32,000 nucleotides of DNA from an archaeon (GCA_024275415.1 JAJRZD010000034.1:48849-80848); one strand, 5' to 3'; positions 3,611 through 23,128 are shown, numbered from the stretch's first letter. Translations and numbers: made by a program. The notes: a model not told the origin generated them from the letters alone.

Positions 3611-4609
3611 ATGGCGATTATCATGAAAATCCTCGTTCCCTATCCTGATGAAACCGCCCAAAAGATCAAAGATATTGTTGGGCATGAAGCTGAGGTTGTC
3701 GTGTCTGAGCGGACTGTAGCGGACATGCTTAAAGTAGGTGGTGATGCCGAAGTCATCGCCTCTGGCAGAGTTCCCGCCGAGTTCATCCGCAAAGCGAGAT
3801 CCCTTCGGATGATACAATCTTTTGGTGCAGGAATTGACAAGATTGACCATGATGCTGTTCTTGAACGGGGGGATGTGATTGTCTGTAACAATCATGCGAA
3901 CGCGGCCGAGGTCGCAGAATACGCGATTATGCTCCTGTTGGCGACTGCGAAGCATATCGTCTTTTCTGACCGTCAATTACGACAAGGGGACTGGGCGATG
4001 GCATGGGGTGGCCCCCTGCCCAACCACGAGCTACGTAACAAGACCTGTCTGATTGTAGGTTTCGGGCATATCGGACGAGAGATTGCAAAGAGGCTTCGAG
4101 CGTTCGATATGTATATGGTTGCAGCAACAAGATCCGGGCGCACTGACCATCAAGAATTAGTAGATGAAGTCATGAGCAGTAAGGACATTATCCCAATTCT
4201 CAAAGATGTCGATTATGTCATCCTCTCTCTCCCCTTGACCACAGAATCGAGGCATTTGGTCGATAGCAAGTTTCTTTCCGAGATGAAGAGTAGTTCGGTT
4301 CTTGTCAATATTTCCCGTGGCCATATCATTGAGGAATCTGCCCTTTATCGAGCTCTCAGTGAACGAACGATTGCTGGGGCTGGTCTTGATGTCTGGTGGG
4401 ACTATCCATCTAAATGGGGTTCTTCAGGGAAATTACCCTCCGAGAACTACCCGTTCCATGATCTTGATAATGTGGTGCTATCTCCTCACCGTGCTGCATA
4501 TTCTGAGAACATTGTACAGGAACAGTTCCAGTTCGCTGGAGAGAATATTCTTCGATTCGTCCGCGGCGAAACGCCACTCAATATTGTAGACTTGACGCTG
4601 GGCTACTGA
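3611..4609 (+). CDS. D-isomer-specific 2-hydroxyacid dehydrogenase
   Basis: Rossmann GFGHIGREIA, LVNISRGHII, AGLDVWW and SPHRAA catalytic His motif. The start could be 3611 or 3623. Confidence 0.92.
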   Translation: MAIIMKILVPYPDETAQKIKDIVGHEAEVVVSERTVADMLKVGGDAEVIASGRVPAEFIRKARSLRMIQSFGAGIDKIDHDAVLERGDVIVCNNHANAAEVAEYAIMLLLATAKHIVFSDRQLRQGDWAMAWGGPLPNHELRNKTCLIVGFGHIGREIAKRLRAFDMYMVAATRSGRTDHQELVDEVMSSKDIIPILKDVDYVILSLPLTTESRHLVDSKFLSEMKSSSVLVNISRGHIIEESALYRALSERTIAGAGLDVWWDYPSKWGSSGKLPSENYPFHDLDNVVLSPHRAAYSENIVQEQFQFAGENILRFVRGETPLNIVDLTLGY

Positions 4610-4792
4610 ATCAGCGAAAACAATGAGGAGTTTTTCAATAGTTTTACCTAATCTAATGGCAAGCAGGTACTCTTAGAGGTCATTCCGAGTACCTAAAGGA
4701 GGCAGACCACAATATCTCATTTCGTCCGAGAGTCAAACCTTTTAGGGCAGTCCCTTGACAAAACATTCGAACGCTACTCAGGGGAAGTCACG

Positions 4793-6982
4793 TTGAACAT
4801 AGAACAAATCTCTGATATTCCTGGTGTTGGTGAGAAAGTCCGAGGAGCTTTGGTGGATCACTTTGGGTCAGAGTCTGTGGCATTGAAGGTCATCTTAGAC
4901 TCACGAGTGGATCTTGTTGCAGCCGTCCCGGGGATTGGTGCACGGCAAGCTGTTAACATCGTGAAAGCCGCATATGAATCACGTTTCGGCGTGAGTTCCA
5001 ATACCATTCTCAGGAGCCCTGACATCAGAAAAATATTCGAGCAAGTGCTTGACATCATCAGGAGCTACGCCAATACAGTCTATGCCAAAGACAAGCTTTT
5101 CCTGTACTTTCCGCTACCCCCTGATAGATTAGAGGAGATTGAGAATCGACAGGCTTACTTTGCTGATGCATCAGCAATGGCCAGATCATTGTCGCCCGAG
5201 CAGCGAGAAATCATCTGCAGAAACCTTTCCCAGATCAGAGGGTTGTTCAGGAGAATAAAACCAAAGCGCATCGAAGGGAGAGTCGTACTCACCAATGATG
5301 ACAAGACTTTCGACAAGCTGATTGCTGAAGGAGTTGAGAAGTGGTGTCCAGCATATCTCCTTTCTGAAGGTGAGAGCGCAGCTGATTATGCCCAAGGGTA
5401 CGATCTTGTCTTCTACATCTCGCCCTTCGGGTTCTACGACAGCTCTGTGGACATGCTTGACAATGTAGAGGCACTTGGGAAGGATTGGAGCATTGCAGAT
5501 GTTCTCCCAGAATACACTGTCGGTTTCTATTCCCGCAACTATAGGGTCATTGATGCTGCTTGCAAACTGGCAGAGGAATTCAAAGAGATTCCTACGAACG
5601 AGTCTGTGCGGAAGTTCATCCAAGACATAGACTTCGAGGATTTGATGAAAGTAGGAGAAATCCTGAGCAACCTGAATGAAGATGGGGACATCGCGACCGG
5701 CGTTGATCCCGAACTCGATAGATACAGGAAAGCGGTCAAGGCATATCCTACCGCCATTGCGGAAATGGAATCATGGCTAAATGAGCAAATTACCACTCGT
5801 ATTTCAAAGAGCCAAATAACTCTCGGCGGTCAACAAATCATCAGCATCCTGCAGTCCGCAGATATGGAAGGCGCAGATGCAGGTGCCATGAGAAATATGC
5901 TTCCTGCTGAGATCATTGAAACATTTGCCAATACGATTCAAGAGGCTGAAGAGAGGCTGGTCAACGAGCTGGGACTCACACCACGAGAAGCAGATTGGGT
6001 GACAGGAATAATCAGTGAGGAAATCGCGTTGCCTGTCAAGCTAGTAATGACACAAGTCAATGACCTTGAGGACAAGCTGAGACGGAAATATGCCGATAAG
6101 CAATTCCGACTTATTAAGAAGTACGCCAGCGATTTGGAAAAACTCCGCGAATCTGTCACCAAGGCTGTCCAAACACTCTTGGAATTTGATTTATTCCTTG
6201 CTGTAGGGCTTTTCTCTGCGGACTATGATTTGAAACGCCCGACCCTAACCCTAGAATATTCTGGAATCGGGGTCAGGGGTGCTAGGAACATATTCTTGGT
6301 TGAGAGTATGCTCAAGGGACGCCATGGCACAGTGCAACCGATTGAGTATGTAATAGGAAACACTCCACTACGCCTTCCCGGGACGAATGGTGAGAACTGT
6401 GCAATACTTTCGGGCGCAAATAGTGGAGGGAAGACAACGACAATCCAGACCCTAGCTCAAATAGCGACGCTCGCCCAGACTGGATTTCCCGTCCCCGCCG
6501 CCGAAACGATACTAAGCCCCTTTGAGGAGATCTTTTTCTTCTACAAAAGCAGAGGAATGGTGAGTGCGGGTGCTTTTGAAACGACACTCAAGCAGTTTGC
6601 TGACATTGTGGTATCAGAAAAGGCCAAATTGGCGCTCTTCGATGAGGTCGAAGCCATTACAGAGCCTGGCAGTGCGGCCAATGTCATTGCCGGACTGATA
6701 GAGATCCTTCAACAGGATCCGAAAAGCTGCACTGTCATATGCAGTCATCTTGCGAAGGAGATCGAAGCAGCTACTAGCGTGCCCATCAGGATAGACGGGA
6801 TTGAGGCGCAAGGGTTGGACGAGAATCTTGAACTGATAGTGGACAGGACTCCCCGTTTCGGTGTTCTGGCAAGGAGTACTCCAGAACTGATTGTCGAAAG
6901 GCTATCGAAGCTCGCAAAGGGGAAGAAAAAGGCAGTCTATGACAAGATTCTTGAGAATCTTAGCAAGGAGCGTATTGAATAG
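4793..6982 (+). CDS. mutS: Archaeal MutS-family ATPase (MutS2/MutS5-like) with N-terminal helix-hairpin-helix
   Basis: TTG start. HhH motifs IPGVGEK and VPGIGARQA. MutS domain V: Walker A SGANSGGKTT, SAGAFETTL, LFDEVEAITEPG. No recognisable mismatch-binding domain I. Confidence 0.85.
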   Translation: MNIEQISDIPGVGEKVRGALVDHFGSESVALKVILDSRVDLVAAVPGIGARQAVNIVKAAYESRFGVSSNTILRSPDIRKIFEQVLDIIRSYANTVYAKDKLFLYFPLPPDRLEEIENRQAYFADASAMARSLSPEQREIICRNLSQIRGLFRRIKPKRIEGRVVLTNDDKTFDKLIAEGVEKWCPAYLLSEGESAADYAQGYDLVFYISPFGFYDSSVDMLDNVEALGKDWSIADVLPEYTVGFYSRNYRVIDAACKLAEEFKEIPTNESVRKFIQDIDFEDLMKVGEILSNLNEDGDIATGVDPELDRYRKAVKAYPTAIAEMESWLNEQITTRISKSQITLGGQQIISILQSADMEGADAGAMRNMLPAEIIETFANTIQEAEERLVNELGLTPREADWVTGIISEEIALPVKLVMTQVNDLEDKLRRKYADKQFRLIKKYASDLEKLRESVTKAVQTLLEFDLFLAVGLFSADYDLKRPTLTLEYSGIGVRGARNIFLVESMLKGRHGTVQPIEYVIGNTPLRLPGTNGENCAILSGANSGGKTTTIQTLAQIATLAQTGFPVPAAETILSPFEEIFFFYKSRGMVSAGAFETTLKQFADIVVSEKAKLALFDEVEAITEPGSAANVIAGLIEILQQDPKSCTVICSHLAKEIEAATSVPIRIDGIEAQGLDENLELIVDRTPRFGVLARSTPELIVERLSKLAKGKKKAVYDKILENLSKERIE

Positions 6983-11242: not shown

Positions 11243-11404
11243 GCCGCCGTGGCTCAGTAGGTAGATGATACCTATTTTGGTATCAACCGAAAGCGACAGC
11301 CTGTTACCTTTCGGTCAACCAGACTGGGAGCCAGACAGTTGTTGGTCGGAGGTTCGAGAGACCGTCAAATAAAACATAGCGGTCAGAAAACCCTCCCGGC
11401 GGCG
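11243..11404 (+). tRNA. tRNA-Asn(GUU) with three introns (22/23, 37/38, 59/60)
   Basis: Exons 11243-11264, 11292-11306, 11337-11358 and 11391-11404 join to GCCGCCGTGGCTCAGTAGGTAGAGCGACAGCCTGTTAAGTTGTTGGTCGGAGGTTCGAGCCCTCCCGGCGGCG (73 nt). Stems: acceptor GCCGCCG/CGGCGGC, D GCTC/GAGC, anticodon ACAGC/GTTGT around GTT (11303-11305), T GGAGG/CCTCC. Each intron folds as a hairpin with BHB-like geometry. Confidence 0.9.
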
Positions 11405-11521
11405 CTATTCCACTTTGTTTCCATAGTGTGTATCTAGTTTGGGGCCAAACTGGTGGCACTTCTATCTACTGCGCAACCACTCTTGGACAGCCCGTCGCTT
11501 CCTGATATCATTGGGAGGGCA

Positions 11522-14500
11522 TTATATGGCCCAACGAATCGTGTCCTCAAGCGAGTCAGTAGTGGCAATCCAGCAGACTGAAACCCTGTCAGTTCTTGGA
11601 TAGTAAGATACACGTCTAGGAAAGAAGGAAACAGCAAAGCCCAATCCTTCGGCAAGGCGGCACTCGTCTCTGATGAGGTTATTGATTGACATATTCACGA
11701 CGTTAAGGAGGTTTGTGACAGTTTCGGCAATGGCAGGGTCGTTATCTTCCTGCAGTTCCTTAAGCTTATTGATAGACAGGGTGGACTTTGGGATCAAGCC
11801 TCTGATGGTCTTCCCCTCTTTCTTTATGAGTTCAATCTCCTCTTGTCCTATCATCGACTCCATATCATAGTGCTCCTTCTCCATATTGACATGGATGGCA
11901 TGGCTACGAGACCACATGAATCTCCCACGCCCGAAGCTTCCATCTTCGGGAATAAGCTCTTCAAGATAGGCGCGTTTGGACTCGTCTGACCAATCAACAT
12001 ACGTGGGAGGAAGTCCTGGGTTGTTGATGGTTTTGTTACCGGGAGTCATCCCGTCATCCAAAAGAACCAATCCAATCTGGCAATGGATATGAATGTCATA
12101 TTTGCCTTTGCGGTATTTAGGTTCGAGCAAAATAGTCCCAAACTCACTAATGGTATCCTGTACTCTCAGAATCCTTCCCATGTGTGCCTCGTTATACGCA
12201 ATTCGGCCAGTCGGCCATAGATGACAATCACTGATGACCACCGCCGTAAGCCTTGCCTTTAATATTTCAAGTTTTTTTCCTTCAGGAAACCGTGGATTCT
12301 TAATTCCTGCTCGTCCGCTTATTCCTGCTATCTTGACTACTAGTCCTTCGAGATTCGACAATCTTCTTCGGGAGCCATCAAGATACATCCTGATGATTTT
12401 CCCTTCGAGGCGAGTGCTGTAAACGTCGAGAGGTCGTTTCCTTGCGGGTTGTCCCTCGTCGTTATCCATGAACTGTCTGACAATCTCGTTGATGCGTGGC
12501 AAGTCCCTGCGTAGAGTCCCATTGAGTCCTAGTGTCTTCCGCAGTTGGTCGATTATCCTGACGACGTCGCCTCGATGTCTGAAATAGAAGAACTGATCCT
12601 CATAAGGTCGCACGAGTTCATCAGGTCTGTGCATGGGCACCCATGCGTACATCGTGTTCTCGACCAGCGCCAAACGAGCTCGCACATGGACAAGTCCGAG
12701 AGCAGATGAAAGGGAATCCTCTATCCGTTGTTTGTTTGCGCGAAGGTATTGCTCGATCTGCCTGATCCTACCGGTTTCAAGTTCAGGATACAAGATTGCA
12801 CGATAAAACCTCTCATTGACAGTAGGACTGTTTCTTATCATCTCTGCAATCGCAGAAACTAGATTCATCTGAGTGAGTTCTTTCGCGTTTTTGATGGTTT
12901 CAAGGGCATCGTGGACGAGATGTTTCTCTATCGTGTGGGCGGTTAGCGACTCAAAGAGGTCTAGACTTGTGGTGTCATACATTCTTTCGAGGGTGGCTCT
13001 GTCTATCTCTGGGTTGCTCTTCTGCCACCCACTGATGATACATTCTTCCTCATGCTTTCTGAGGTCTTTGATCTGAGCTGGTTCGATGGCATTCCACGAA
13101 TTGGTCACAAATCCCTTGCTGACGCCGTATTTTACCGCAATCTCATCGCGTTTCATGGAATGATCATCTTTGATTTGAAAGTACAGGTTGCTGAACATCT
13201 TCCTTTCCTCAAAGTCCCACCGTTCGCGCTCAGCAGGATGTTTCTTAATCAACCTCTCTACATCTTCCATAGACTCGATTCTGATATCAGGTGGTCCTCC
13301 ATGAACTGTTTCGAACATCCGCCTGAGTTCTCTATCCTGCAACCTCTCTATCAAGTCCGGGGGTTCGACGTTCTTCTTGTCTTTCAGTCTGCAATACTCT
13401 AAAGCATCCTTGTATTGCTCATCAAATCCTTTCTCCGCTTTCAAATCATAGTTCTGCTCAATCGCGCGCTCAAGATTCTTTACACAATGGATTTTCCAAG
13501 GCATAGCTTCGAGTCCTGTTCCCCCCACTGACTTGGAGATAATTCCTTTATCCTTTGACCGGGATACGTACTGACCTATCCCGTTCTGGTCCTGTTTCAT
13601 ATTCCTTATTCGAGAGGGGATGTCCCACCCCCGAAGCCAAAGTACAATCCTGTGGGAGCTGATTTTGTATTTCAGTGCTAGATTATGTATCTGATTCCGG
13701 TCGTAGAGTTCGACACCTTCTCGCACCCGGATTCTAATCTCATCTCTTCTACGCATCCCAATGATATCCAACCATGCCTGTAGATACCCAAGTTCGTCAG
13801 AGAATATCATGTCATCGAAAGCTACTCGGATTTCTTCCAATGACCTAGGATACCGTTGACTCTCGTACTCTCTCGCTGCCTGCATTAACCGATAGCGAAG
13901 CTCCCGCCGTACGATGTCATACACCCCTTCAGGAATCGACTCAAGATTAGCATACTCTTGGACCAGTTCGGGATTCAGCCCAATCTCCTCAGCCAGCTCC
14001 TTGACCTTCGCTTCGCTTTCAACACCTGATGTTTCCTCCGACAGGTGAACCCTGATGGTGATGAACTTGGAAACCAAGTTATCCTCTATCAGATGAGCTA
14101 CCTCATGCTTCTGTAGGATGTCCTCCCAGTCCTCTTGTGACTGTAACTCCGCGATGATCTGACGGATGTGCCGCTCCCTGTCATCTTCTGATAGAGAGTC
14201 CTCTATCTTATCAATCAACTCCCTGACCTTGCGCTCAGCCGCTTCCTCGGACGACTCGGGGATGCAGGAAGCAAGGATATATTCATGGTGCCTTCTTCGT
14301 TCCTGTTTCTTTTTTTCTTCTTGATTATCGAGTTCACTCTCTTCCTGTCGCATCGAATCACTCTGTTCGTACTCGCCCCTTTTCTCAATATTATGCCCCT
14401 TGGTGGTAGTCTGTTTTTTCTGCTCCCTTAGATGAGGGTGTTCGATGTCCACTTCTCCTGTATGATCATGTGGTTCTTCATTTGGATGATGTGTTGTGCC

Positions 14501-15253
14501 TATCCCTTCCACCGCTTCTTTGGAGTGATTATGTCCCTGCTGTTCGGTATCCCCCGTCAGTTTATCCTTTTTTGTAGGCATTTCGTTCTCAAGTACGGAC
14601 TCCGACTTTGTTTTACACGTTCTCGGCTCTCCCTCTTGTACTAAATACAACTGCCCAGTTCCCCCATCATAGGATGAGGTCTTCTCCTCAGTATGGGACT
14701 GTCCCGTGTCCGAGTCCGTGTTGTGTTCGTCCTTTTCCTCTTCAGACTCCTGCTCCTTTTTCTCTGCGTCCTCTGAGAGGGACTCCTCCATCTCGGATAC
14801 ATAGACCCCGCGCCACCGTTCCCTGACCTGCTCAGGGTCGATCCCGAACTCCTCCATCACATCGATGACACGCTGCTCGAACTCATCAAGAAGATCCTTG
14901 TCAGCCGTCCGTTCTCGTTCCTCTCGGGCTTTCTCCCGTCCAATCCCGATCCTTTGTCCCTCTTCCTTCGCCTCTAGCCCCTTCACCGCCTCACGGCCCC
15001 TCTTGCTGTCAGACACAGGTTCCTCGTTCACACGTTGGCCGACCCTCGCTCTTCCCCCATCACCACCATGCTCTTCTGCCTCGTGCCCATCATTGTCCTT
15101 TTGCTCTACTACTTCCTTCTCAGCCACCCTTCGTTCATACTTCTCCCGGAACTCCCTGACACGCCTGCTGATCTCATACTGGTATTCCTCGTATTCGCGG
15201 TCCTCTCGCCACTCGTCGTATTCCCTGCGGCGACTCCGCTCCCCTCCCTCCAT
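11522..15253 (-). CDS. 1243-aa protein: charged low-complexity N-terminus, three HTH-like motifs and a C-terminal LAGLIDADG-like endonuclease domain
   Basis: E/R/K-rich N-terminal region. HTH-like VKELAEEIGLNPELVQEYAN, IHNLALKYKISSHRIVLWLRG and RDEIAVKYGVSKGFVTNSWN. LAGLIDADG-like motifs ARLTAVVISDCH (D1009) and KRAYLEELIPEDGSF (D1104). The ORF itself is secure; the domain calls are by eye. Confidence 0.7.
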   Translation of the reverse strand: MEGGERSRRREYDEWREDREYEEYQYEISRRVREFREKYERRVAEKEVVEQKDNDGHEAEEHGGDGGRARVGQRVNEEPVSDSKRGREAVKGLEAKEEGQRIGIGREKAREERERTADKDLLDEFEQRVIDVMEEFGIDPEQVRERWRGVYVSEMEESLSEDAEKKEQESEEEKDEHNTDSDTGQSHTEEKTSSYDGGTGQLYLVQEGEPRTCKTKSESVLENEMPTKKDKLTGDTEQQGHNHSKEAVEGIGTTHHPNEEPHDHTGEVDIEHPHLREQKKQTTTKGHNIEKRGEYEQSDSMRQEESELDNQEEKKKQERRRHHEYILASCIPESSEEAAERKVRELIDKIEDSLSEDDRERHIRQIIAELQSQEDWEDILQKHEVAHLIEDNLVSKFITIRVHLSEETSGVESEAKVKELAEEIGLNPELVQEYANLESIPEGVYDIVRRELRYRLMQAAREYESQRYPRSLEEIRVAFDDMIFSDELGYLQAWLDIIGMRRRDEIRIRVREGVELYDRNQIHNLALKYKISSHRIVLWLRGWDIPSRIRNMKQDQNGIGQYVSRSKDKGIISKSVGGTGLEAMPWKIHCVKNLERAIEQNYDLKAEKGFDEQYKDALEYCRLKDKKNVEPPDLIERLQDRELRRMFETVHGGPPDIRIESMEDVERLIKKHPAERERWDFEERKMFSNLYFQIKDDHSMKRDEIAVKYGVSKGFVTNSWNAIEPAQIKDLRKHEEECIISGWQKSNPEIDRATLERMYDTTSLDLFESLTAHTIEKHLVHDALETIKNAKELTQMNLVSAIAEMIRNSPTVNERFYRAILYPELETGRIRQIEQYLRANKQRIEDSLSSALGLVHVRARLALVENTMYAWVPMHRPDELVRPYEDQFFYFRHRGDVVRIIDQLRKTLGLNGTLRRDLPRINEIVRQFMDNDEGQPARKRPLDVYSTRLEGKIIRMYLDGSRRRLSNLEGLVVKIAGISGRAGIKNPRFPEGKKLEILKARLTAVVISDCHLWPTGRIAYNEAHMGRILRVQDTISEFGTILLEPKYRKGKYDIHIHCQIGLVLLDDGMTPGNKTINNPGLPPTYVDWSDESKRAYLEELIPEDGSFGRGRFMWSRSHAIHVNMEKEHYDMESMIGQEEIELIKKEGKTIRGLIPKSTLSINKLKELQEDNDPAIAETVTNLLNVVNMSINNLIRDECRLAEGLGFAVSFFPRRVSYYPRTDRVSVCWIATTDSLEDTIRWAI
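11671..11866. repeat. Direct repeat, copy 1 (196 bp, inside the 1243-aa ORF, about residues 1130-1195)
   Basis: Matches 18666-18861 at 194/196 positions (gtttcggcaa vs gtttcagcaa; taagcttatt vs taagcctatt). Confidence 0.97.
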
Positions 15254-15262
15254 CAGCCATCA

Positions 15263-18200
15263 CTACCTGTGGAACTCCAGGAGCCTTGAGATGACCTCTT
15301 TCGAGATGATCCCGTGCTCATTGGGGATGACCGTCCCGATCACCTGGGTCGCCACTTCGATGGTACGGGGGAGCCCTGATGCGCCCACGGCATCGTAGAC
15401 GAGCCCCGCGAAGGCGGCCAAGGCATCTCCTGAGCCTTCATCCAGGAACCTCTGTGCCGCTTCCATGAACTCAGGGTTTGTCAGGTACGCTCCTGTTGGT
15501 GCAATACTTGCCTTTCCCTGTCCTGGGACGTCCGTCCTATCCCTCGTGGCCAACCGTTTCATGAGCCCCTCGGGAAGGGGTTCATGTCGGGCAAGCTGCG
15601 GGTTCGCATCGTAGAAGGCGGACATGTGCGCTCGTATCGCATCACTCCCCAGATGTTCGGTATCTATCTGGTCATGGAACAAGAACGAGAGGGGGATCAT
15701 CTGCACGTTCTTGGGCTCCCGTGCCTCCTCGAGGTACACTACCGCTTCGCCCCGCTCCATCCCCCGGATGTGCTGGATCTGGGCATCGCTGCACCCGATA
15801 TGGCTCCCCAGCATGGCCATCGTTTCCCTGTCTTCCTTCAGTCGATGGAGGACCGCGTTGACAGGGAGCTTCACCACCTCGCTGGCAAGGGCACTGGGCA
15901 ACTGGTCGATGATGACCAGCCCGAGCCCTGTCCCGCCAAGGACCCTGAGCATCTCGACGAATGCATGGACTGCCTGTTGTCGTGCAGCGGAGTTCGCCTC
16001 ACCGTCAAGACTGTTTCTCCCCAGGACATAGTGCGCCTCCTCGAGGACCAGCAGGTTCTCCACCCGCTTGGACGGGTTGGCAAGCTTGTACTCGCTTATT
16101 GCTGCCGTCAGCATCCCCATGAGCAGGGCCGTGTCACTCTGGGACAATGCGTCCATCTCGATGATGGTGGGATGGGAGAGGAGTCCAGGTATCGAGATGC
16201 CCTCTGAGGTGTTGAACATCCCGACCAAAGAGGGCTTCCGCAGGAGCGACCTTACTCTGGCTACCAGTGCCCCGTAGAAGTTCTTGTTCACCTCCTCGTC
16301 GTAGTTCAGCTCCTTGCCGAAGGTGAGGACTCCCTCAACGATGTCCTCAAAGAGGATGGGGTGTCCCCGTTCGCCGGACTCGATGTCCCAGCCGCAGTTG
16401 GCATAGGTTGAGTACACCCAGTCCTCGACGTGCATGGAGATGACCCTGTCATTGGGCAACCAGAGGGTGAGGACCTGTACTACCCTGTCCACCCACTTCC
16501 GCAGTGGGACCTTTGGCGGGGGCTCCCAGAAGTTCAGCTTGAACCCGGCTACAGTATCATCTCCCGCCGTGAAGACCCGGATGCCGGGGAAGACCCTCAT
16601 GAGGGTTCTCCACTCGTACGCCTTCGAGGGGACCAGCACCACAGGGTTCAGCCCCATGCTGATGGCCTGCCCGATGAGGCTCATTGCGCTCCAGGTCTTC
16701 CCTGAGCGGGTGGTCCCAAGGACGAGGAGGTGCCCGTCGTAGTACTGGGTGCCAGAGGTCAGGAACTTCCCTGATAGCACCGTCCCGTTCTCGTCTATCG
16801 GGTTGCCATAGTAGAGGGACCTTGCCCGCCCCTTCCACCGCACGCCCGTCGGGACGTCACATCTGAAGACCTTCCGTTCCTCCTGTGGGCGAGCCTCTTT
16901 AGCAGTGGTCTGGGTCGAGGTGGAGAACCGTTCGCGAGCGGTCACCCTGATCCCCATGTCTGTCTGCGGGAGGACGAGATAGTTCGCCACCTCCCGCAGG
17001 GTCAGTCGTGTGGGGGAACCTATGGGGAACCCGGACAGCAGCCTGTCAAGGTCCTTCTTACGATGGAACGTCCTGACCTTGAAGGGGTCCTGTTCCTGCC
17101 CGGGAGCGACGGAACCCATGATGGCGCTTGCCAGCCTACGGGCAGCCGTATCCGCGCACTCCAGAGTACTGTCGCAAGATGCCACCATGACCGTGGTGTT
17201 GCACAGGTCCCGTTCGTTGAGGCGTTCCAGCTCCCGCGCCAGTCGTGATGCCTTGGCAAGTTCCTTCGGGTCCACTACCCGCTTTGATTCCTGCCTGTCA
17301 CCGTGAAGAAGGCTCGACCGTTCCCGGGTCACGGTGGTCTCTGAGGACTGGACTGCCTTCTTGTACCTGTCCTGCAGGGACGCGACCTCCCTAGTACTGA
17401 CGGTGGTCGGTTCCACGAACACCTGTACCATGGCATTGTCCAGTCCCTGCAGCACGCCAATGGGGGCGGACATGGGTGCCGTGACCTGCTCCTCGCCAGT
17501 GATAGGAGTAGGGATCCCTGAGACCTCCACAGCCACGCAGGCCATGTCCTCTTGAAGGCACAACCCTTCATACCCTTTGACCTTTGTGAGCCTGAACCCC
17601 TTGAGATTGCTCAGGAGGGTGTCTTGCATCAACACCATCTGCACCCCAAGACGCACAGAGTCCTTCGCCCACGTCAGGAACATGACCCTGGTGACAGAGT
17701 CCTTCCGTAAGAACAACAGGCTGAAGGGGACATCACTGGAGCCCAGGTGACGGACGATGTTGAGGAAGCTTGCTGACACGTCCTGTCGGGTCTCCTTCGC
17801 GTCAGCAGGGAACGCATAGTCCCTTGGGATCTCCGTGACCTCGAAGCCCATGATGGGAGGTGGTGCCCGTGAGGGGCGTTTTGGGACACGGAGCGGTGAG
17901 ATGGTCTTCCTGGACGTCGTGACAAGCCCGGGCAAGAGAACCCTCTTTGAACGGGATGTCCGTGAGTCCCAGAGGCAGGTGACGAGGGCCGCCCCGATGC
18001 CGACCACCGCAATAAGCAGGTTCGCAGCATTACCGACCAGCGGTATCGGGATGAAAGAGAGGACTACTACAAGCCCCACCAAGATGGCCCCTGCGGCGAT
18101 CATGGCCCCTGCGAGCAACGAGTAGAGCCATACCCGGGGCTTTCGCCCGAAGAGCAATGCTGTTGCGCCGATGAAGAAGGTGACCGTTGCAAGGAGGGAG

Positions 18201-18346
18201 CTGGGGCTCCCTATCGAGGAAGGGACGAACCTCACAAGGTATAGTAACCACAGGACACAATAGGACGGTATGAAGGTGAGGAGCACCAGGAGGACGAGCT
18301 TGAAGAGCAAGACCACCAGTGAGTTAGGACGATCCGAATCTGTCAA
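15263..18346 (-). CDS. Membrane-anchored HerA/FtsK/VirD4(TrwB)-superfamily ATPase (DUF87-like)
   Basis: About four N-terminal hydrophobic segments. Walker A LVLGTTRSGKT (16694-16717), Walker B LLVLEEAH and a downstream IDQLPS motif. It ends 9 bp before the start of the 1243-aa gene. Sampled 60-nt lines are 57-72% GC against about 40-48% in flanking DNA. Confidence 0.85.
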   Translation of the reverse strand: MTDSDRPNSLVVLLFKLVLLVLLTFIPSYCVLWLLYLVRFVPSSIGSPSSLLATVTFFIGATALLFGRKPRVWLYSLLAGAMIAAGAILVGLVVVLSFIPIPLVGNAANLLIAVVGIGAALVTCLWDSRTSRSKRVLLPGLVTTSRKTISPLRVPKRPSRAPPPIMGFEVTEIPRDYAFPADAKETRQDVSASFLNIVRHLGSSDVPFSLLFLRKDSVTRVMFLTWAKDSVRLGVQMVLMQDTLLSNLKGFRLTKVKGYEGLCLQEDMACVAVEVSGIPTPITGEEQVTAPMSAPIGVLQGLDNAMVQVFVEPTTVSTREVASLQDRYKKAVQSSETTVTRERSSLLHGDRQESKRVVDPKELAKASRLARELERLNERDLCNTTVMVASCDSTLECADTAARRLASAIMGSVAPGQEQDPFKVRTFHRKKDLDRLLSGFPIGSPTRLTLREVANYLVLPQTDMGIRVTARERFSTSTQTTAKEARPQEERKVFRCDVPTGVRWKGRARSLYYGNPIDENGTVLSGKFLTSGTQYYDGHLLVLGTTRSGKTWSAMSLIGQAISMGLNPVVLVPSKAYEWRTLMRVFPGIRVFTAGDDTVAGFKLNFWEPPPKVPLRKWVDRVVQVLTLWLPNDRVISMHVEDWVYSTYANCGWDIESGERGHPILFEDIVEGVLTFGKELNYDEEVNKNFYGALVARVRSLLRKPSLVGMFNTSEGISIPGLLSHPTIIEMDALSQSDTALLMGMLTAAISEYKLANPSKRVENLLVLEEAHYVLGRNSLDGEANSAARQQAVHAFVEMLRVLGGTGLGLVIIDQLPSALASEVVKLPVNAVLHRLKEDRETMAMLGSHIGCSDAQIQHIRGMERGEAVVYLEEAREPKNVQMIPLSFLFHDQIDTEHLGSDAIRAHMSAFYDANPQLARHEPLPEGLMKRLATRDRTDVPGQGKASIAPTGAYLTNPEFMEAAQRFLDEGSGDALAAFAGLVYDAVGASGLPRTIEVATQVIGTVIPNEHGIISKEVISRLLEFHR

Positions 18347-18633
18347 TGGTCCACCCCCCGGAGTGGCAGTGTCGGATTGGCCTTTTCCTCATAGTCGGGA
18401 CATGACATCAGTATCAGATATGTAGTACATCTAGAGAATATCTATCTTTGTACAGGACGAGATTGGACATGATAATGGCGATATGGTGTATATGAGCACT
18501 CTATGCATATATTATCAAAAATTACGTGTTAATAACTTATTATTACATAATAGAAGACCTATACGATAGTATTCGTCATAAAAACACCTCAAAGTTTAAC
18601 AAACATGGGTCTTTTTGAGAGTGCTATTTGGAA

Positions 18634-19044
18634 CTAAGCGACTACTCTCCAGCCGTACTCATCAGTGATGAGGTTATTGATTGACATATTCACGACGTTA
18701 AGGAGGTTTGTGACAGTTTCAGCAATGGCAGGGTCGTTATCTTCCTGCAGTTCCTTAAGCCTATTGATAGACAGGGTGGACTTTGGGATCAAGCCTCTGA
18801 TGGTCTTCCCCTCTTTCTTTATGAGTTCAATCTCCTCTTGTCCTATCATCGACTCCATATCGGGAAGGTTTTCAGCTGTATCATAGAGATTCCGAGAAGC
18901 TGGTGAGGCGCTACAAGTGCGGGACAAGAGGTCTGGTGACACCAGATGAAAGATAGAATTGATGCTCAAGGCGGTACACAAAACGGAACATGCGACCTTC
19001 CTCTTATGGTTCGATTCACGAGTTTTGCAACAGATTTCGCTCAC
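18634..19044 (-). pseudogene. Orphan fragment of the C-terminal part of the 1243-aa gene
   Basis: About 65 codons nearly identical to the large ORF. The upstream part of the ORF does not look like real protein. Confidence 0.55.
18666..18861. repeat. Direct repeat, copy 2 (196 bp)
   Basis: Same orientation as 11671-11866 and offset by 6,995 bp. On the minus strand it reads DMESMIGQEE...SINNLI and then diverges to TDEYGWRVVA* (stop at 18634). Confidence 0.97.
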
Positions 19045-19091: not shown

Positions 19092-19895
19092 ATGGAATAT
19101 CCCGGTACTGAGCGAGTGATAGCAAGAGCTTCCTGCCGTTCCAACAACCTGCCTGGAGATATTATTGTCACCAACCTTGGCGTGTCTTTTGAGAGATCAA
19201 CCGGTTTTTTAAGGACGGGGCGGATGAGAGCTCATCATTTCACGTTTGACGAGATTCACAATATCCGGCTTGAATCCAAGGGCATTGCTGGATCTCTCAC
19301 AGGCAGTGTGATTCTTGCGATTGACCACAGATCTCGCACGTTCGGCACTCGTACAACACGTTATCATATGCAAAAGAATGATGCGAATCGGATACTTCGT
19401 GCACTCAAGTACGTACATGAGAGAAAAGATGCTCCACGACAACTTGAGATGCTACTATTGCGTCTGATTAAACCCCATGGAAAAGTAGACCTCAGACACA
19501 TCTCTACTATGAGCAATGTCCGAGAGGTTGTTGCCAGAGTTCGAGGGATTAATCAAACTCAATTATGGGATGCAGATTCGTTTGCGACTGTGAGGAACGT
19601 TGTTGCTGGACTTATCGCAGATGGTCGTCTTGATGGCATAATCAATGAGAACCACGAATATGTTCCCAGCACAATGATCACTCGCAAATCTGTCGAATAT
19701 CAAATCGTACTTGATTTTGCCACAATACTTGCCCAACTCAAGACTAAAGGAATAGTTCTTCAATCTTTAGAATGCCCCTCCTGCAAAGGACAGTTGGAAT
19801 ATCCAAAGGACGGAAGCAGCACAACATGCACGTTTTGTGGAGCCACCATTGCAGCCTTTGATATTTTCGAGAAATTCAAAGGACTGCTCTCCTAG
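19092..19895 (+). CDS. Hypothetical protein: PH-like N-terminus, winged-helix/PCI-like middle and C-terminal Zn ribbon
   Basis: GDIIVTNLGVSFE...HFTFDEIHNIRLE (PH/GRAM-like strands), VAGLIADGRLDGII (WH/PCI-like) and CPSCKGQL...CTFCGA (four Cys). Confidence 0.7.
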   Translation: MEYPGTERVIARASCRSNNLPGDIIVTNLGVSFERSTGFLRTGRMRAHHFTFDEIHNIRLESKGIAGSLTGSVILAIDHRSRTFGTRTTRYHMQKNDANRILRALKYVHERKDAPRQLEMLLLRLIKPHGKVDLRHISTMSNVREVVARVRGINQTQLWDADSFATVRNVVAGLIADGRLDGIINENHEYVPSTMITRKSVEYQIVLDFATILAQLKTKGIVLQSLECPSCKGQLEYPKDGSSTTCTFCGATIAAFDIFEKFKGLLS

Positions 19896-20112: not shown

Positions 20113-20734
20113 GTGAGAGTCGAGGTAGATGTTTCAGAGATTCCTGACTGGTGTTACTATATTGACGAGAAGTGCAAGGAACTTGAGGAACAACTGAAGG
20201 AATATCTAGTATACTGCGAGTATGGCGTAAGGCGTATGCATATGGCAGATGACTGGACAGATGATCCCTATGTCCTTTTACAACCGATTGGCGAAGAAGC
20301 ACTCATGCTTGAGTCATGGGAATTCGAGGCTTTGAGTCCCTCAGAGATCCTCCTCCTCATTGAATATGAATCTGAAACATATGTGTTTGATGTCATCGAG
20401 TATGCATTATTGTGCTTGTTCATAGCGGGTATGCTCATGCTTGGCATTCCTGCTGTCTTTCTTGTTCCACAACTGGTCATGGGTTTGGCGGATCCCTTCC
20501 TTTTATCTATCATTCAATTATCTACTCTCATCCTAATCATTTCAGCAACTCTTTATTCTCGGAAACATGGATCTCGAAAAGCAAAGACAGCTCATCAGAG
20601 AGTTCATCACGAGAGATTCACACTACGTAGATGTCTTGCAAAGGCTTGCAGCCTTACCTGAGGTTGCCGAGTGGAAGCGACGCGAATATGAACGAATCTT
20701 GCGATCCATAACGAATGCGATGGCAGAAACCTAG
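20113..20734 (+). pseudogene. Membrane protein gene with an apparent frameshift near 20565
   Basis: The GTG 20113 frame gives an acidic domain and two TM helices. A second frame from 20567 (MDLEKQRQLIREFITRDSHYVDVLQRLAALPEVAEWKRREYERILRSITNAMAET*) looks like the true C-terminus. A sequencing error or a separate small gene is also possible. Confidence 0.45.
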
Positions 20735-20858: not shown

Positions 20859-21263
20859 TCATTTCTTCTGAGCCAATGCTATGACATGCCTGTCAAGATC
20901 CGTACCATAAGCAACTCTATCTCCCCAATCCCGCTCTACCACATTACTGACGAGCCGTCCTCCTGCCTGTACCAGTCTTTCTATGGCGCGTTCAAGATTC
21001 TTCACGAACAGGTATAACTCACATCTGGGAATGCCGTTTCCCCGCGAAGGATGCGGCACAGATTCGCCCAGTATCTTTGCTATACCAGTTTCGGGCATCA
21101 GTCCCAAGACGAATGAATTGTCTATCTCAAACATAGTCATTCCCTCGACATCAACTGAAGGCTCTTTCTGCAGAAAAGTGCGATAGAATTCCCTACTTCT
21201 CTCTTGACTTTCCACAAAGAAGATTATCATCGCTTTGACATACCATATCACTATCCCTGTCAT
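20859..21263 (-). CDS. VOC/glyoxalase-family protein
   Basis: IFFVESQERSREFY, CELYLFVKNLERAIERLVQAGG and RDWGDRVAYGTDLDRHVI. ATGA overlap with the upstream ZIP gene. Confidence 0.88.
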   Translation of the reverse strand: MTGIVIWYVKAMIIFFVESQERSREFYRTFLQKEPSVDVEGMTMFEIDNSFVLGLMPETGIAKILGESVPHPSRGNGIPRCELYLFVKNLERAIERLVQAGGRLVSNVVERDWGDRVAYGTDLDRHVIALAQKK

Positions 21264-22042
21264 CCGAATATGAACTCAAAGATATTGTCAAGCATCATCA
21301 TGACCACAAAGCCAATCATGGTTCCCCAAGTCGCTGCTCGTGCATTTCCTGCAGCATGGCTTTCAGGCAACATTTCCTCACCCACTACGAATATCATGGC
21401 ACCGGCTGCAAAGGCAAGTCCATATGGCAACAGGAACGATGCGAAGGAAACTATCGATACCCCGATTAGCCCTCCGATAGGCTCAACTAGCCCTGTGAGA
21501 AGTGCCAATCCCGCAGCATATCTTCTAGAATATCCCTCTCGTATCATTGGCGCTGCGACAGCCATCCCCTCAGGGATGTTCTGGAGACCTATTGCTACCG
21601 CAACTGCAAGCCCTTCTGCGATGTCACCAGACCCAAAGGACACACCTACCGCCAGTCCTTCTGGGATATTGTGAATAGTGATTGCTAGAACCAGCAACCA
21701 GACTTTTGCCATCGCGGATGACGGTCCTTCGCGCCCTTTCCCAAAGTGCTCATGGGGGATGTATTTGTCCGCAAGGTGGATGAACACTCCGCCCAACACA
21801 AAGCCGAACGACACTACTGTTATCACCCCGACCCAATCCACGATTAACTCAAGGGCCGGTACAAGTAGACTGAATGCGGAGGCTGCTAGCATGACTCCCG
21901 CTGCCGTCCCAAGCATGATGTCCAGTGTTCTCCGTGAGAAGTTCCCTCCCAGAAGGACGGGTATTGCTCCGATGCCTGTAGCTGTCCCAGCAAGGAGGCT
22001 GGCGAGGATTCCTAACGATATGGGATCTGTGAGCAGCTGCAT
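21260..22042 (-). CDS. zupT: ZIP-family (GufA/ZupT) metal transporter
   Basis: AAGVMLAASAFSLL, IPHEHF, AITIHNIPEGLAVGV, GLQNIPEG, LTGLVEP and AFAAGAMIFVV. Confidence 0.94.
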   Translation of the reverse strand: MQLLTDPISLGILASLLAGTATGIGAIPVLLGGNFSRRTLDIMLGTAAGVMLAASAFSLLVPALELIVDWVGVITVVSFGFVLGGVFIHLADKYIPHEHFGKGREGPSSAMAKVWLLVLAITIHNIPEGLAVGVSFGSGDIAEGLAVAVAIGLQNIPEGMAVAAPMIREGYSRRYAAGLALLTGLVEPIGGLIGVSIVSFASFLLPYGLAFAAGAMIFVVGEEMLPESHAAGNARAATWGTMIGFVVMMMLDNIFEFIFG

Positions 22043-23021: not shown

Positions 23022-23128
23022 TGGTGGGCCCGGGGCGATTTGAACGCCCGACCGTTCCCCTGCCCGATGGGATTCACCGAGCATACAGGTTATGAGCCTG
23101 CTGCTCTACCAAGCTGAGCTACGGGCCC
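23022..23128 (-). tRNA. tRNA-Ile2(CAU) with a 30-nt intron at 43/44; CCA encoded
   Basis: Reverse strand reads GGGCCCGTAGCTCAGCTTGGTAGAGCAGCAGGCTCATAACCTGT[intron 23084-23055]CGGTCGGGCGTTCAAATCGCCCCGGGCCCACCA. The GGGCCC acceptor stem is typical of archaeal Ile tRNAs and differs from initiator (AGCGGG) and elongator Met (GCC...) tRNAs. Confidence 0.88.

What the first reader, a model, noticed from the sequence alone, without database searches (positions are those of the whole stretch)
11522..18875. Candidate integrase-free mobile or DNA-transfer module: membrane ATPase plus giant HTH/LAGLIDADG-like protein, beside a tRNA
Seen: two co-oriented genes 9 bp apart (ATPase 18346-15263, then 15253-11522), directly downstream of tRNA-Asn, with anomalous GC, an AT-rich stretch upstream (about 18420-18640) and 196-bp direct repeats. 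Established: TM-anchored HerA/FtsK/VirD4-type ATPases translocate DNA or protein in conjugation, in Ced-like exchange and in secretion, and LAGLIDADG domains cut or nick DNA. Inference: this may be a minimal pump-plus-nuclease system in which the HTH/LAGLIDADG protein binds and cuts DNA in place of a relaxase. Alternatively, the ATPase exports the large protein as an effector with an exchangeable C-terminus. I do not recognise this pairing from named systems, and no integrase, transposase or replicase is visible.
Basis: partly seen in the sequence, partly recalled or inferred. Interest (0 to 1): 0.8.

Follow-up and report, generated by a model that had tools for sequence, protein, structure and literature searches.

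The report
Membrane ATPase with giant LAGLIDADG nuclease
Two adjacent genes in this Thorarchaeota (Asgard archaeon) genome, a membrane-anchored DNA-pump-type ATPase and a very large DNA-reading LAGLIDADG nuclease, belong to a gene pair that recurs across the order, comes and goes between genomes and has not been described, but nothing shows that it is a tRNA-integrated mobile island.

Summary
Both ORFs, the 9-bp gap, the GC jump, the AT-rich leader, a 210-nt 97% direct repeat and a three-intron tRNA-Asn are all present.

- **ATPase.** It has four TM helices, a VirB4/CedD-like N-domain and a HerA/FtsK-class motor (DndH C-domain Z 29, VirB4 Z 28.5, HerA Z 26).
- **Partner.** It has a conserved N-terminal peptide, about 300 highly charged residues, HTH units and a double-motif LAGLIDADG domain (Z 16.6/12.9). 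Both catalytic acidic residues are conserved.
- **Pairing.** In 19 of 19 extended Thorarchaeial loci the ATPase is directly followed by such a partner. One partner carries NUMOD3 repeats plus HNH instead of LAGLIDADG.
- **Distribution.** Both families are patchy and multi-copy, with many fragments. Partners also occur without the ATPase.

The island reading fails. Zip, partner and tRNA-Asn are syntenic in relatives. High GC3 is a trait of the ATPase family (17 of 21 loci). The repeat is an internal gene fragment, and no integrase was found. Trees show that this copy is a recombinant. It has also lost a conserved C-terminal tail to a stop codon.

Best reading (about 0.35): an ATPase-coupled, long-site nuclease conflict module. 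Rivals are a homing cassette, DNA transfer and toxin export. The scan had noted an ATPase-NUMOD3-HNH block in another genome before.

The parts
15263..18346 (-). ATPase P0001. It has 4 TM helices (res 10-129), an N-domain (165-480), a HerA/VirB4/DndH-type motor (495-889) and a helical C-domain (900-1027). Walker A K550 is at 16697-16699.
   Evidence: Model pLDDT 83. VIA Z 29.3 to DndH-C, 28.5 to VirB4, 26.1 to HerA, 22.1 to TrwB. Invariant G544, G549, K550, E769, E770 and Q815; R801 at 90% or more.
11522..15253 (-). Partner P0002, 1243 aa. Res 1-20 hold the N-terminal motif MEG..RRRREY. Res 1-330 are about 45% charged. HTH-like units lie at about res 420-990. Res 990-1243 form the LAGLIDADG domain.
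11525..12286 (-). Double-motif LAGLIDADG nuclease domain. The motif Asp residues are D1009 (12227-12229) and D1104 (11942-11944).
   Evidence: VIA Z 16.6 to the TliVMA intein endonuclease domain and Z 12.9 to I-DmoI (156 of 183 aligned, rmsd 2.3). Foldseek. D1009 is conserved in 39 of 39 sequences; position 1104 is D in 35 and E in 4.
11465..11521 (-). In-frame remnant of the conserved C-terminal tail (CPPND.RK..VE.WLR), cut off by the TAA at 11522-11524.
   Evidence: one search reads through 1 TAG and 1 TAA.
11657..11866 (.). Direct repeat, right copy, inside the partner gene (res 1130-1199).
18652..18861 (.). Direct repeat, left copy. It is an orphan fragment of the partner's LAGLIDADG domain inside ORF 18634-19044(-).
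18347..18651 (-). AT-rich leader upstream of the ATPase (GC 0.38; 0.32 at 18420-18640). It is the presumed promoter region.
   Evidence: the promoter role is inferred.
11243..11404 (+). tRNA-Asn(GTT) with three introns, convergent with the partner gene.
   Evidence: It is also conserved after solo partners in L010, G019 and G015.
20113..20661 (+). Small membrane protein (soluble N-domain plus 2-3 TM helices) of a family that recurs next to these modules.
   Evidence: BLAST cluster of 7 loci; TM scan; limits from tblastn.
21260..22042 (-). ZIP transporter, the synteny anchor of the locus.
   Evidence: Pfam 2.3e-28. It is adjacent to the module or a solo partner in L011, L047, L048, L055 and G019.

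Best explanation
This is a Thorarchaeia-specific, fast-turnover accessory module that acts on DNA. The ATPase is a ring-forming HerA/VirB4/DndH-class translocase, held at the membrane here by four TM helices. The partner is a long-site-specific endonuclease, with HTH units reading DNA and a catalytically intact double-LAGLIDADG domain cutting it. I propose that the partner is coupled to the ATPase through its conserved N-terminal peptide and long acidic linker. The most likely role is an ATPase-nuclease conflict (anti-invader) system of the 'HerA/FtsK plus HTH plus endoDNase' type. In that model the motor engages or reels in foreign DNA and presents it to the nuclease.

Shown: the folds, the motifs, the operon conservation, the exchange of nuclease type, the patchy multi-copy distribution, and recombination within the module.

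Inferred: physical coupling of the two proteins, DNA as the substrate, and a defensive role.

The copy in this window is a recombinant and may be decaying, since it has lost the conserved C-terminal tail.
For: - **ATPase.** Fold and catalytic motifs are intact.
- **Nuclease.** LAGLIDADG fold, with both acidic residues at the ends of the two motif helices and conserved.
- **Pairing.** A partner follows the ATPase directly in 19 of 19 extended loci, spanning 28-53% ATPase identity.
- **Effector exchange.** The L041 partner has 15 NUMOD3 repeats plus HNH, with the same N-terminal motif.
- **N-terminal region.** The motif and charged region are absent from partners in genomes without the ATPase (G077, G078, own contig C118).
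- **Census.** Of 86 genomes in the order, 32 have both families, 9 the ATPase only, 16 the partner only and 29 neither. One genome carries up to 9 ATPase copies. Both families are absent from two same-genus genomes that are 91% and 95% complete.
- **Shuffling.** The ATPase and partner trees disagree.
- **Published concept.** HerA/FtsK-HTH-endoDNase anti-invader systems are described in PMC10853773.
- **Neighbours.** A PLD/DrmC-like nuclease sits inside or beside the module in two loci, and an OLD nuclease in one.
Against: - Neighbours of 21 loci are mostly housekeeping genes; about 3 of 91 look defence-related.
- PADLOC gives only partial HerA hits and recognises no system.
- LAGLIDADG and NUMOD3-HNH are typical of homing endonucleases, not of known defence effectors.
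- Partners often stand alone: 16 genomes have the partner but no ATPase, and solo orthologues sit at the syntenic locus. The nuclease therefore does not strictly need this ATPase.
- The TM plus VirB4-like N-domain architecture equals that of the DNA-import ATPase CedD.
- No experimental data exist.
Confidence: 0.35

Rival explanations
1. Selfish homing cassette. The partner is an outsized free-standing homing endonuclease that spreads by cutting alleles lacking it, and the ATPase is cargo or a helper.
For: - Both nuclease types, LAGLIDADG and HNH with NUMOD3, are hallmarks of homing endonucleases.
- The family includes LAGLIDADG-only ORFs of 190-350 aa, many orphan fragments and copies with internal stops, as in a gain-decay-loss cycle.
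- The Zip to tRNA-Asn site shows presence/absence polymorphism within one genus.
- Modules sit between housekeeping genes without integrases.
- A recombination breakpoint lies inside the partner gene, and a 210-nt duplicate lies upstream.
Against: - The proteins are 4-6 times larger than known homing endonucleases.
- A conserved N-terminal peptide, an acidic linker and a tightly coupled 1000-aa ATPase are not expected of a streamlined selfish gene.
- Solo orthologues are kept intact at 40-60% identity at a syntenic locus across genera.
- No target site has been identified.
Confidence: 0.22
2. DNA-transfer or uptake module. A CedD/VirB4/FtsK-like membrane ATPase pumps DNA across the membrane, and the site-specific nuclease prepares the substrate in place of a relaxase.
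For: - The ATPase architecture of TM helices, VirB4-like N-domain and HerA-type motor matches CedD/CedB/VirB4. NCBIfam gives a partial CedD hit at 3.8e-6.
- A small 2-TM protein family recurs beside the modules, notably those with TM-less ATPases.
Against: - Pfam finds no VirB6/CedA-like channel, pilin, coupling protein or relaxase near any locus.
- A genome can carry up to 9 divergent ATPase copies.
- One ATPase clade lacks TM helices.
- The nuclease type is exchanged between loci.
- The NCBIfam score is far below the CedD cut-off (25.9 against 600 bits).
Confidence: 0.15
3. Export of a polymorphic nuclease toxin. An FtsK/EccC-like membrane ATPase secretes the partner, which is recognised through its N-terminal signal. 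The C-terminal nuclease domains are exchangeable, and a downstream small gene confers immunity.
For: - All ATPase-linked partners share the N-terminal motif and a disordered charged region, whichever nuclease they carry.
- Orphan C-terminal fragments occur.
- A conserved gene of about 200 aa overlaps the partner's stop in 8 loci.
- The ATPase N-domain shows weak similarity to an ESX-3 chain (Z 9.8).
Against: - Some ATPases lack TM helices.
- The third gene is conserved across different nuclease clades, which does not fit an immunity gene, and it is absent from this window.
- HTH arrays plus LAGLIDADG imply long specific target sites, a poor design for a general toxin.
- No archaeal system of this kind is known.
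Confidence: 0.08
4. Integrated mobile element bounded by the 210-nt repeats (attL/attR) beside tRNA-Asn, excising as a 6,995-bp circle.
For: Direct repeats at 97% identity flank exactly the ATPase plus most of the partner. A tRNA lies nearby. The GC content jumps.
Against: - No integrase was found.
- The repeat is an internal fragment of the LAGLIDADG domain, not a tRNA end.
- Recombination would leave a meaningless hybrid ORF and a partner lacking its last strands.
- The tRNA and the partner are syntenic in relatives without the ATPase.
- The GC3 excess is a family trait.
- No comparable repeat flanks 19 other loci.
Confidence: 0.04

Closest known systems
HerA/FtsK-nuclease conflict systems (DndH and the 'HerA/FtsK capture' systems of PMC10853773; DUF4297-HerA; Sir2-HerA)
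   Same: A HerA/FtsK-class motor is combined with HTH domains and an endoDNase. The best structural match of the motor is the DndH C-domain (Z 29.3, 338 of 373 residues aligned). The genes are accessory, patchy and modular.
   Different: The effector is a giant HTH-LAGLIDADG (or NUMOD3-HNH) protein on a separate polypeptide. The ATPase carries TM helices and a VirB4-like N-domain. PADLOC recognises no system. The loci are not in defence islands.
CedB/CedD and VirB4 (archaeal Ced DNA import, type IV secretion)
   Same: The architecture is the same: TM helices, a VirB4-like N-domain and a HerA-type ATPase. Foldseek's top hits are full-length TrwK/VirB4 (E 1e-14).
   Different: No CedA/VirB6, pilins or other T4SS genes were found. 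The family is multi-copy. The sequence score is far below the CedD cut-off. Some members lack TM helices.
HerA-NurA DNA end-resection pair
   Same: An operon of a HerA-fold hexameric translocase and a nuclease (HerA Z 26.1).
   Different: The nuclease has a LAGLIDADG fold, not a NurA fold. The ATPase is membrane-anchored. The pair is not universal or single-copy.
LAGLIDADG homing endonucleases (I-DmoI, intein PI-SceI/TliVMA) and domesticated relatives (WhiA, yeast HO)
   Same: The fold is a single-chain double motif with acidic residues ending both motif helices. As in WhiA and HO, the domain is fused to extra DNA-binding modules.
   Different: The gene is not inside an intron or intein. The protein is 4-6 times larger. 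It is coupled to an ATPase. Unlike WhiA, the catalytic residues are kept.

Membership tests
HerA/FtsK superfamily P-loop ATPase | Walker A GxxxxGK[ST], Walker B hhhh[DE]E, sensor-1 Gln and an upstream Arg finger | tested here: met
   G544, G549, K550, E769, E770 and Q815 are invariant and R801 is conserved at 90% or more in 45 sequences. The motif definition is from PMC10853773.
HerA/FtsK superfamily P-loop ATPase | Fold of the motor domain | tested here: met
   VIA Z 29.3 (DndH-C), 28.5 (VirB4), 26.1 (HerA), 16.2 (FtsK).
VirB4/Ced-type DNA transfer apparatus | Co-encoded channel (VirB6/CedA), pilins, and a coupling protein or relaxase | tested here: not met
   Pfam found none among the window ORFs scanned or among the 25 most recurrent families in 91 neighbours of 21 loci. 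Divergent versions could be missed, since no structure-based search of the neighbours was done.
VirB4/Ced-type DNA transfer apparatus | NCBIfam CedD or TraD score above the curated cut-off | tested here: not met
   CedD scores 25.9 bits against a cut-off of 600; TraD scores 22.7 against 366.
LAGLIDADG endonuclease | Alpha-beta-beta-alpha-beta-beta-alpha double-domain fold | tested here: met
   Z 16.6, 13.2, 12.9 and 12.7 to TliVMA, PI-PfuI, I-DmoI and I-Tsp061I; model pLDDT 89.
LAGLIDADG endonuclease | An acidic residue at the C-terminal end of each LAGLIDADG helix | tested here: met
   D1009 ends helix 393-410 of the model and D1104 ends helix 491-505 (model numbering = residue minus 599). 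They are conserved in 39 of 39 sequences, and as 35 D plus 4 E.
LAGLIDADG endonuclease | Homing: residence in an intron or intein, or cleavage of a cognate empty site | not testable with these tools
   The gene is free-standing, and no target site can be inferred from sequence alone.
Known HerA-effector defence systems (Sir2-HerA, DUF4297-HerA) | A Sir2 or DUF4297 effector next to a soluble HerA | tested here: not met
   The partner has no PADLOC or Pfam hit to these effectors, and the ATPase has TM helices.
DndFGH | The eight-domain DndH architecture with DndF and DndG | tested here: not met
   Only the C-terminal ATPase domain matches (model residues 495-889). No DndF or DndG appears among the window ORFs scanned with Pfam.
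tRNA-integrated mobile element | An integrase, plus att repeats derived from the tRNA end that bound the island | tested here: not met
   No integrase was found. The repeat is a fragment of the partner gene. The tRNA is syntenic with solo partners.

The most novel reading that the evidence does not exclude
An Asgard-specific self-spreading unit in which a giant homing-type endonuclease travels with its own CedD/VirB4-like membrane DNA pump. DNA exchange between cells and site-specific cutting would then together drive integrase-free gene transfer, with the nuclease standing in for a relaxase.
Probability: 0.12. Interest if true: 0.85.

Novelty: new variant of a known kind. Interest (0 to 1): 0.58.

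Why it matters
Asgard archaea have very few characterised mobile, defence or DNA-exchange systems. This is a large, lineage-specific family: the partner alone forms about 490 clusters at 50% identity. It joins a VirB4/HerA-class motor to homing-endonuclease-type nucleases with long HTH arrays, and I found no paper that describes this combination. Whether it restricts invaders, spreads selfishly or moves DNA, it would reveal a new way of using LAGLIDADG enzymes. It could also supply ATP-coupled nucleases with long recognition sites. It marks a hotspot of genome flux in the closest prokaryotic relatives of eukaryotes.

Tried and rejected
- **tRNA at the wrong end.** I first looked for the tRNA at 18.3-19.2 kb. 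ARAGORN and Rfam, even at E up to 10, found nothing there. The tRNA lies at the other end, at 11243-11404.
- **Complex prediction.** ATPase residues 160-1027 with partner residues 1-120 gave no verdict (score 0.00). This counts neither for nor against binding.
- **Left repeat junction.** An exact-match scan of metagenome contigs for it gave 0 hits.
- **Family libraries.** PADLOC, PHROGs and NCBIfam recognised no system. A PDB sequence search was uninformative.
- **Defence-island enrichment.** It was tested and not found.
- **attL/attR and 'excisable circle that swaps the C-terminus'.** Rejected, because the products would be a junk hybrid ORF and a truncated nuclease.
- **Recent-HGT reading of the GC jump.** Rejected, because GC3 excess is seen in the ATPase in 17 of 21 loci but not in the adjacent partner genes.
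- **Misassembly as the source of the repeat.** Judged unlikely, because both copies have unique flanks and differ at 6 positions.
- **Internal repeat in the partner.** hhalign of residues 300-610 against the C-terminal profile found only one weak HTH-like match.


Full report
**Observation**

The window holds two co-oriented ORFs on the minus strand. P0001 (15263-18346) is 1027 aa with a TTG start; the database gene call is 1017 aa. P0002 (11522-15253) is 1243 aa, and the two are 9 bp apart.

GC rises to about 0.60 across the ATPase gene, against 0.45-0.49 around it. The leader at 18420-18640 has GC 0.32.

A 210-nt direct repeat at 97% identity lies at 11657-11866 and 18652-18861, with sharp borders. 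The upstream copy is a fragment of the partner's own C-terminal domain (residues 1130-1199), embedded in an otherwise unrelated 136-aa ORF.

ARAGORN and Rfam see no tRNA next to the pair. An earlier scan note pointed to 11243-11404(+). After I removed three introns of 27, 30 and 32 nt, ARAGORN called the 73-mer tRNA-Asn(GTT). The tRNA is convergent with the partner gene, 117 bp from its stop.

**The ATPase**

Pfam gives only sub-threshold DUF87 and FtsK hits. An AlphaFold model built from 45 homologues (pLDDT 83) shows four parts:
- four TM helices (residues 10-129);
- an alpha/beta N-domain (165-480);
- a motor domain (495-889);
- a helical tail.

VIA-align gives Z 29.3 to the DndH C-domain (338 of 373 residues aligned), 28.5 to VirB4, 26.1 to HerA and 22.1 to TrwB. 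Foldseek's best E-values are to full-length TrwK/VirB4.

Walker A, Walker B (hhhhEE), an invariant sensor-1 Gln and a conserved Arg are all present. This is the HerA/FtsK signature as defined in PMC10853773. The TM plus VirB4-like N-domain plus HerA-motor layout is that reported for the DNA-import ATPase CedD (PMC11868833). The NCBIfam CedD score, however, is far below its cut-off.

**The partner**

No Pfam, NCBIfam, PHROG or PADLOC family matches. A model of residues 600-1243 (39 sequences, pLDDT 89) has a helical, HTH-like first half, with weak sigma region-4 similarity. Its second half, residues 990-1243, is a single-chain double-motif LAGLIDADG domain. VIA-align gives Z 16.6 to the TliVMA intein endonuclease domain and Z 12.9 to I-DmoI (156 of 183 residues aligned, rmsd 2.3). 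WhiA also matches.

The acidic residues that end the two LAGLIDADG helices are conserved. D1009 is Asp in 39 of 39 sequences, and position 1104 is Asp in 35 and Glu in 4. Unlike WhiA, the domain therefore looks catalytically competent.

The first 300 residues are about 45% charged. They follow a short conserved N-terminal motif, MEG..GE..RRRREY.

**Conservation of the pair**

The ATPase has about 50 homologues at 40-64% identity, and every one that a source names comes from Thorarchaeota.

In 20 extended loci from the order, 19 have downstream sequence. In all 19 the ATPase is followed by a large co-oriented ORF, overlapping it or within about 210 bp. Seventeen of these ORFs share P0002 homology. 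Some reach Pfam LAGLIDADG_3 and many HTH families.

In L041 the partner instead carries 15 NUMOD3 repeats and an HNH nuclease, yet it begins with the same N-terminal motif and charged region.

Two further gene families recur beside the modules:
- a cytoplasmic protein of about 200 aa that overlaps the partner's stop in 8 loci, and also follows solo partners in two genomes;
- a small protein with two TM helices in 7 loci, including window 20113-20661.

**Distribution**

The table gives the census of the 86 other genomes of the order.

| Families present | Genomes |
|---|---|
| ATPase and partner | 32 |
| ATPase only | 9 |
| Partner only | 16 |
| Neither | 29 |

- Copy number reaches 9 for the ATPase and 8 for the partner.
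- Two same-genus genomes that are 91% and 95% complete have neither family.
- Many partner fragments exist, along with LAGLIDADG-only ORFs of 190-350 aa and copies with internal stops.
- The partner profile finds 490 clusters at 50% identity in 1.84 billion representatives.
- Partners in genomes without the ATPase (G077, G078, own contig C118) lack the N-terminal motif and the charged region. This fits a role for that region in coupling to the ATPase.

**Why it is not a tRNA island**

The window is collinear with L011 from CBS, amidohydrolase, AMMECR1 and QRPTase through Zip to the partner and beyond.

The closest relatives of the partner's C-terminal half sit at this same Zip to tRNA-Asn locus without any ATPase. 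They are P0057 (60% identity), G019 (62%) and P0064 (45%). Other genera have the ATPase plus partner next to Zip (L047, L048, L055). G017 has Zip but neither gene at that locus.

The elevated GC3 is a property of the ATPase family. It exceeds the flank median in 17 of 21 loci, by 0.09 on average. The adjacent partner genes match their hosts, at +0.01.

No integrase, transposase or relaxase was detected.

Recombination between the repeats would give a junk hybrid ORF and a nuclease lacking its last strands. Among the 20 other loci scanned, self-repeats turned up in four. Only L041/L094 has a long repeat flanking the module, a 358-bp, 84% repeat around a 9.7-kb block.

I read the upstream copy as a remnant of duplication or recombination, one of many orphan partner fragments in these genomes. 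Its exact origin is unexplained.

**This copy is a recombinant, possibly decaying**

In the ATPase tree the window groups with L005 (100/100) and then L046. In the partner C-terminal tree it groups with solo L010 (100/99), and then with L055 and L011. L055's ATPase belongs to the TM-less clade.

The partner's N-terminal and middle regions resemble L005-type partners, at 44% and 32% identity. A breakpoint near residue 600 therefore seems likely.

The gene also ends at a TAA just before a highly conserved tail (CPPND.RK..VE.WLR) that is still readable in frame after the stop.

**Function**

The best-supported reading is an ATPase-coupled, long-site nuclease module of the HerA/FtsK-HTH-endoDNase conflict type, with confidence about 0.35. 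The evidence for a defensive role is indirect. The neighbours are mostly housekeeping genes, and homing-type nucleases are unusual as defence effectors.

The rivals, with my confidence in each:
- a giant homing cassette (0.22);
- CedD/VirB4-like DNA transfer, with the nuclease acting as processing enzyme (0.15);
- export of a polymorphic nuclease toxin (0.08);
- an att-bounded integrated element (0.04).

Literature searches found no description of this pairing. An earlier scan note on another genome had recorded a membrane ATPase with NUMOD3-HNH block.

Noticed in passing
window 11243-11404 (+): tRNA-Asn(GTT) with three introns (27, 30 and 32 nt) is invisible to both ARAGORN and Rfam. It is recognised only after manual splicing.
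   Followed up: yes
window 23025-23128 (-): Rfam finds a 104-nt tRNA (59.8 bits) that ARAGORN does not, so it probably contains an intron.
   Followed up: no
window 11462-11524 (-): The partner gene ends at a TAA just before a tail that is nearly invariant in homologues. The tail is still in frame after the stop. This may be a fresh nonsense mutation, a sequencing error or read-through.
   Followed up: partly
L094 (G052:C10) 4556-4913 and 14223-14580, with partial copies at 629-808 and 2770-2975: A repeat of about 360 bp (84% identity) occurs four times and brackets a 9.7-kb block that holds the ATPase and the NUMOD3-HNH partner.
   Followed up: partly
L046, L048, L049, L051-L054, L060; also L095 and L098: A conserved cytoplasmic gene of about 200 aa with no Pfam family overlaps the partner's stop codon, including after solo partners. 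It is absent from this window.
   Followed up: partly
L049 2071-3090 (-) and L052 718-1707 (-): A PLD-family nuclease with a Nudix_N domain (DrmC-like in PADLOC) lies beside or inside the module in two genomes.
   Followed up: no
order-wide, e.g. G025:C2:228751-229308 and G079:C28:226652-227209: Free-standing LAGLIDADG-only ORFs of 190-350 aa and short orphan fragments, all homologous to the partner's nuclease domain, are scattered through Thorarchaeial genomes.
   Followed up: no
21 loci: The ATPase genes have higher GC3 than their flanks in 17 of 21 loci, while the co-transcribed partner genes do not. This gene-specific codon bias is unexplained.
   Followed up: partly
window 19092-19895 (+): A divergently oriented 267-aa protein has weak PCI-like and TFIIB-type zinc-ribbon hits. 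It may be a regulator, but it is not conserved at other loci.
   Followed up: no
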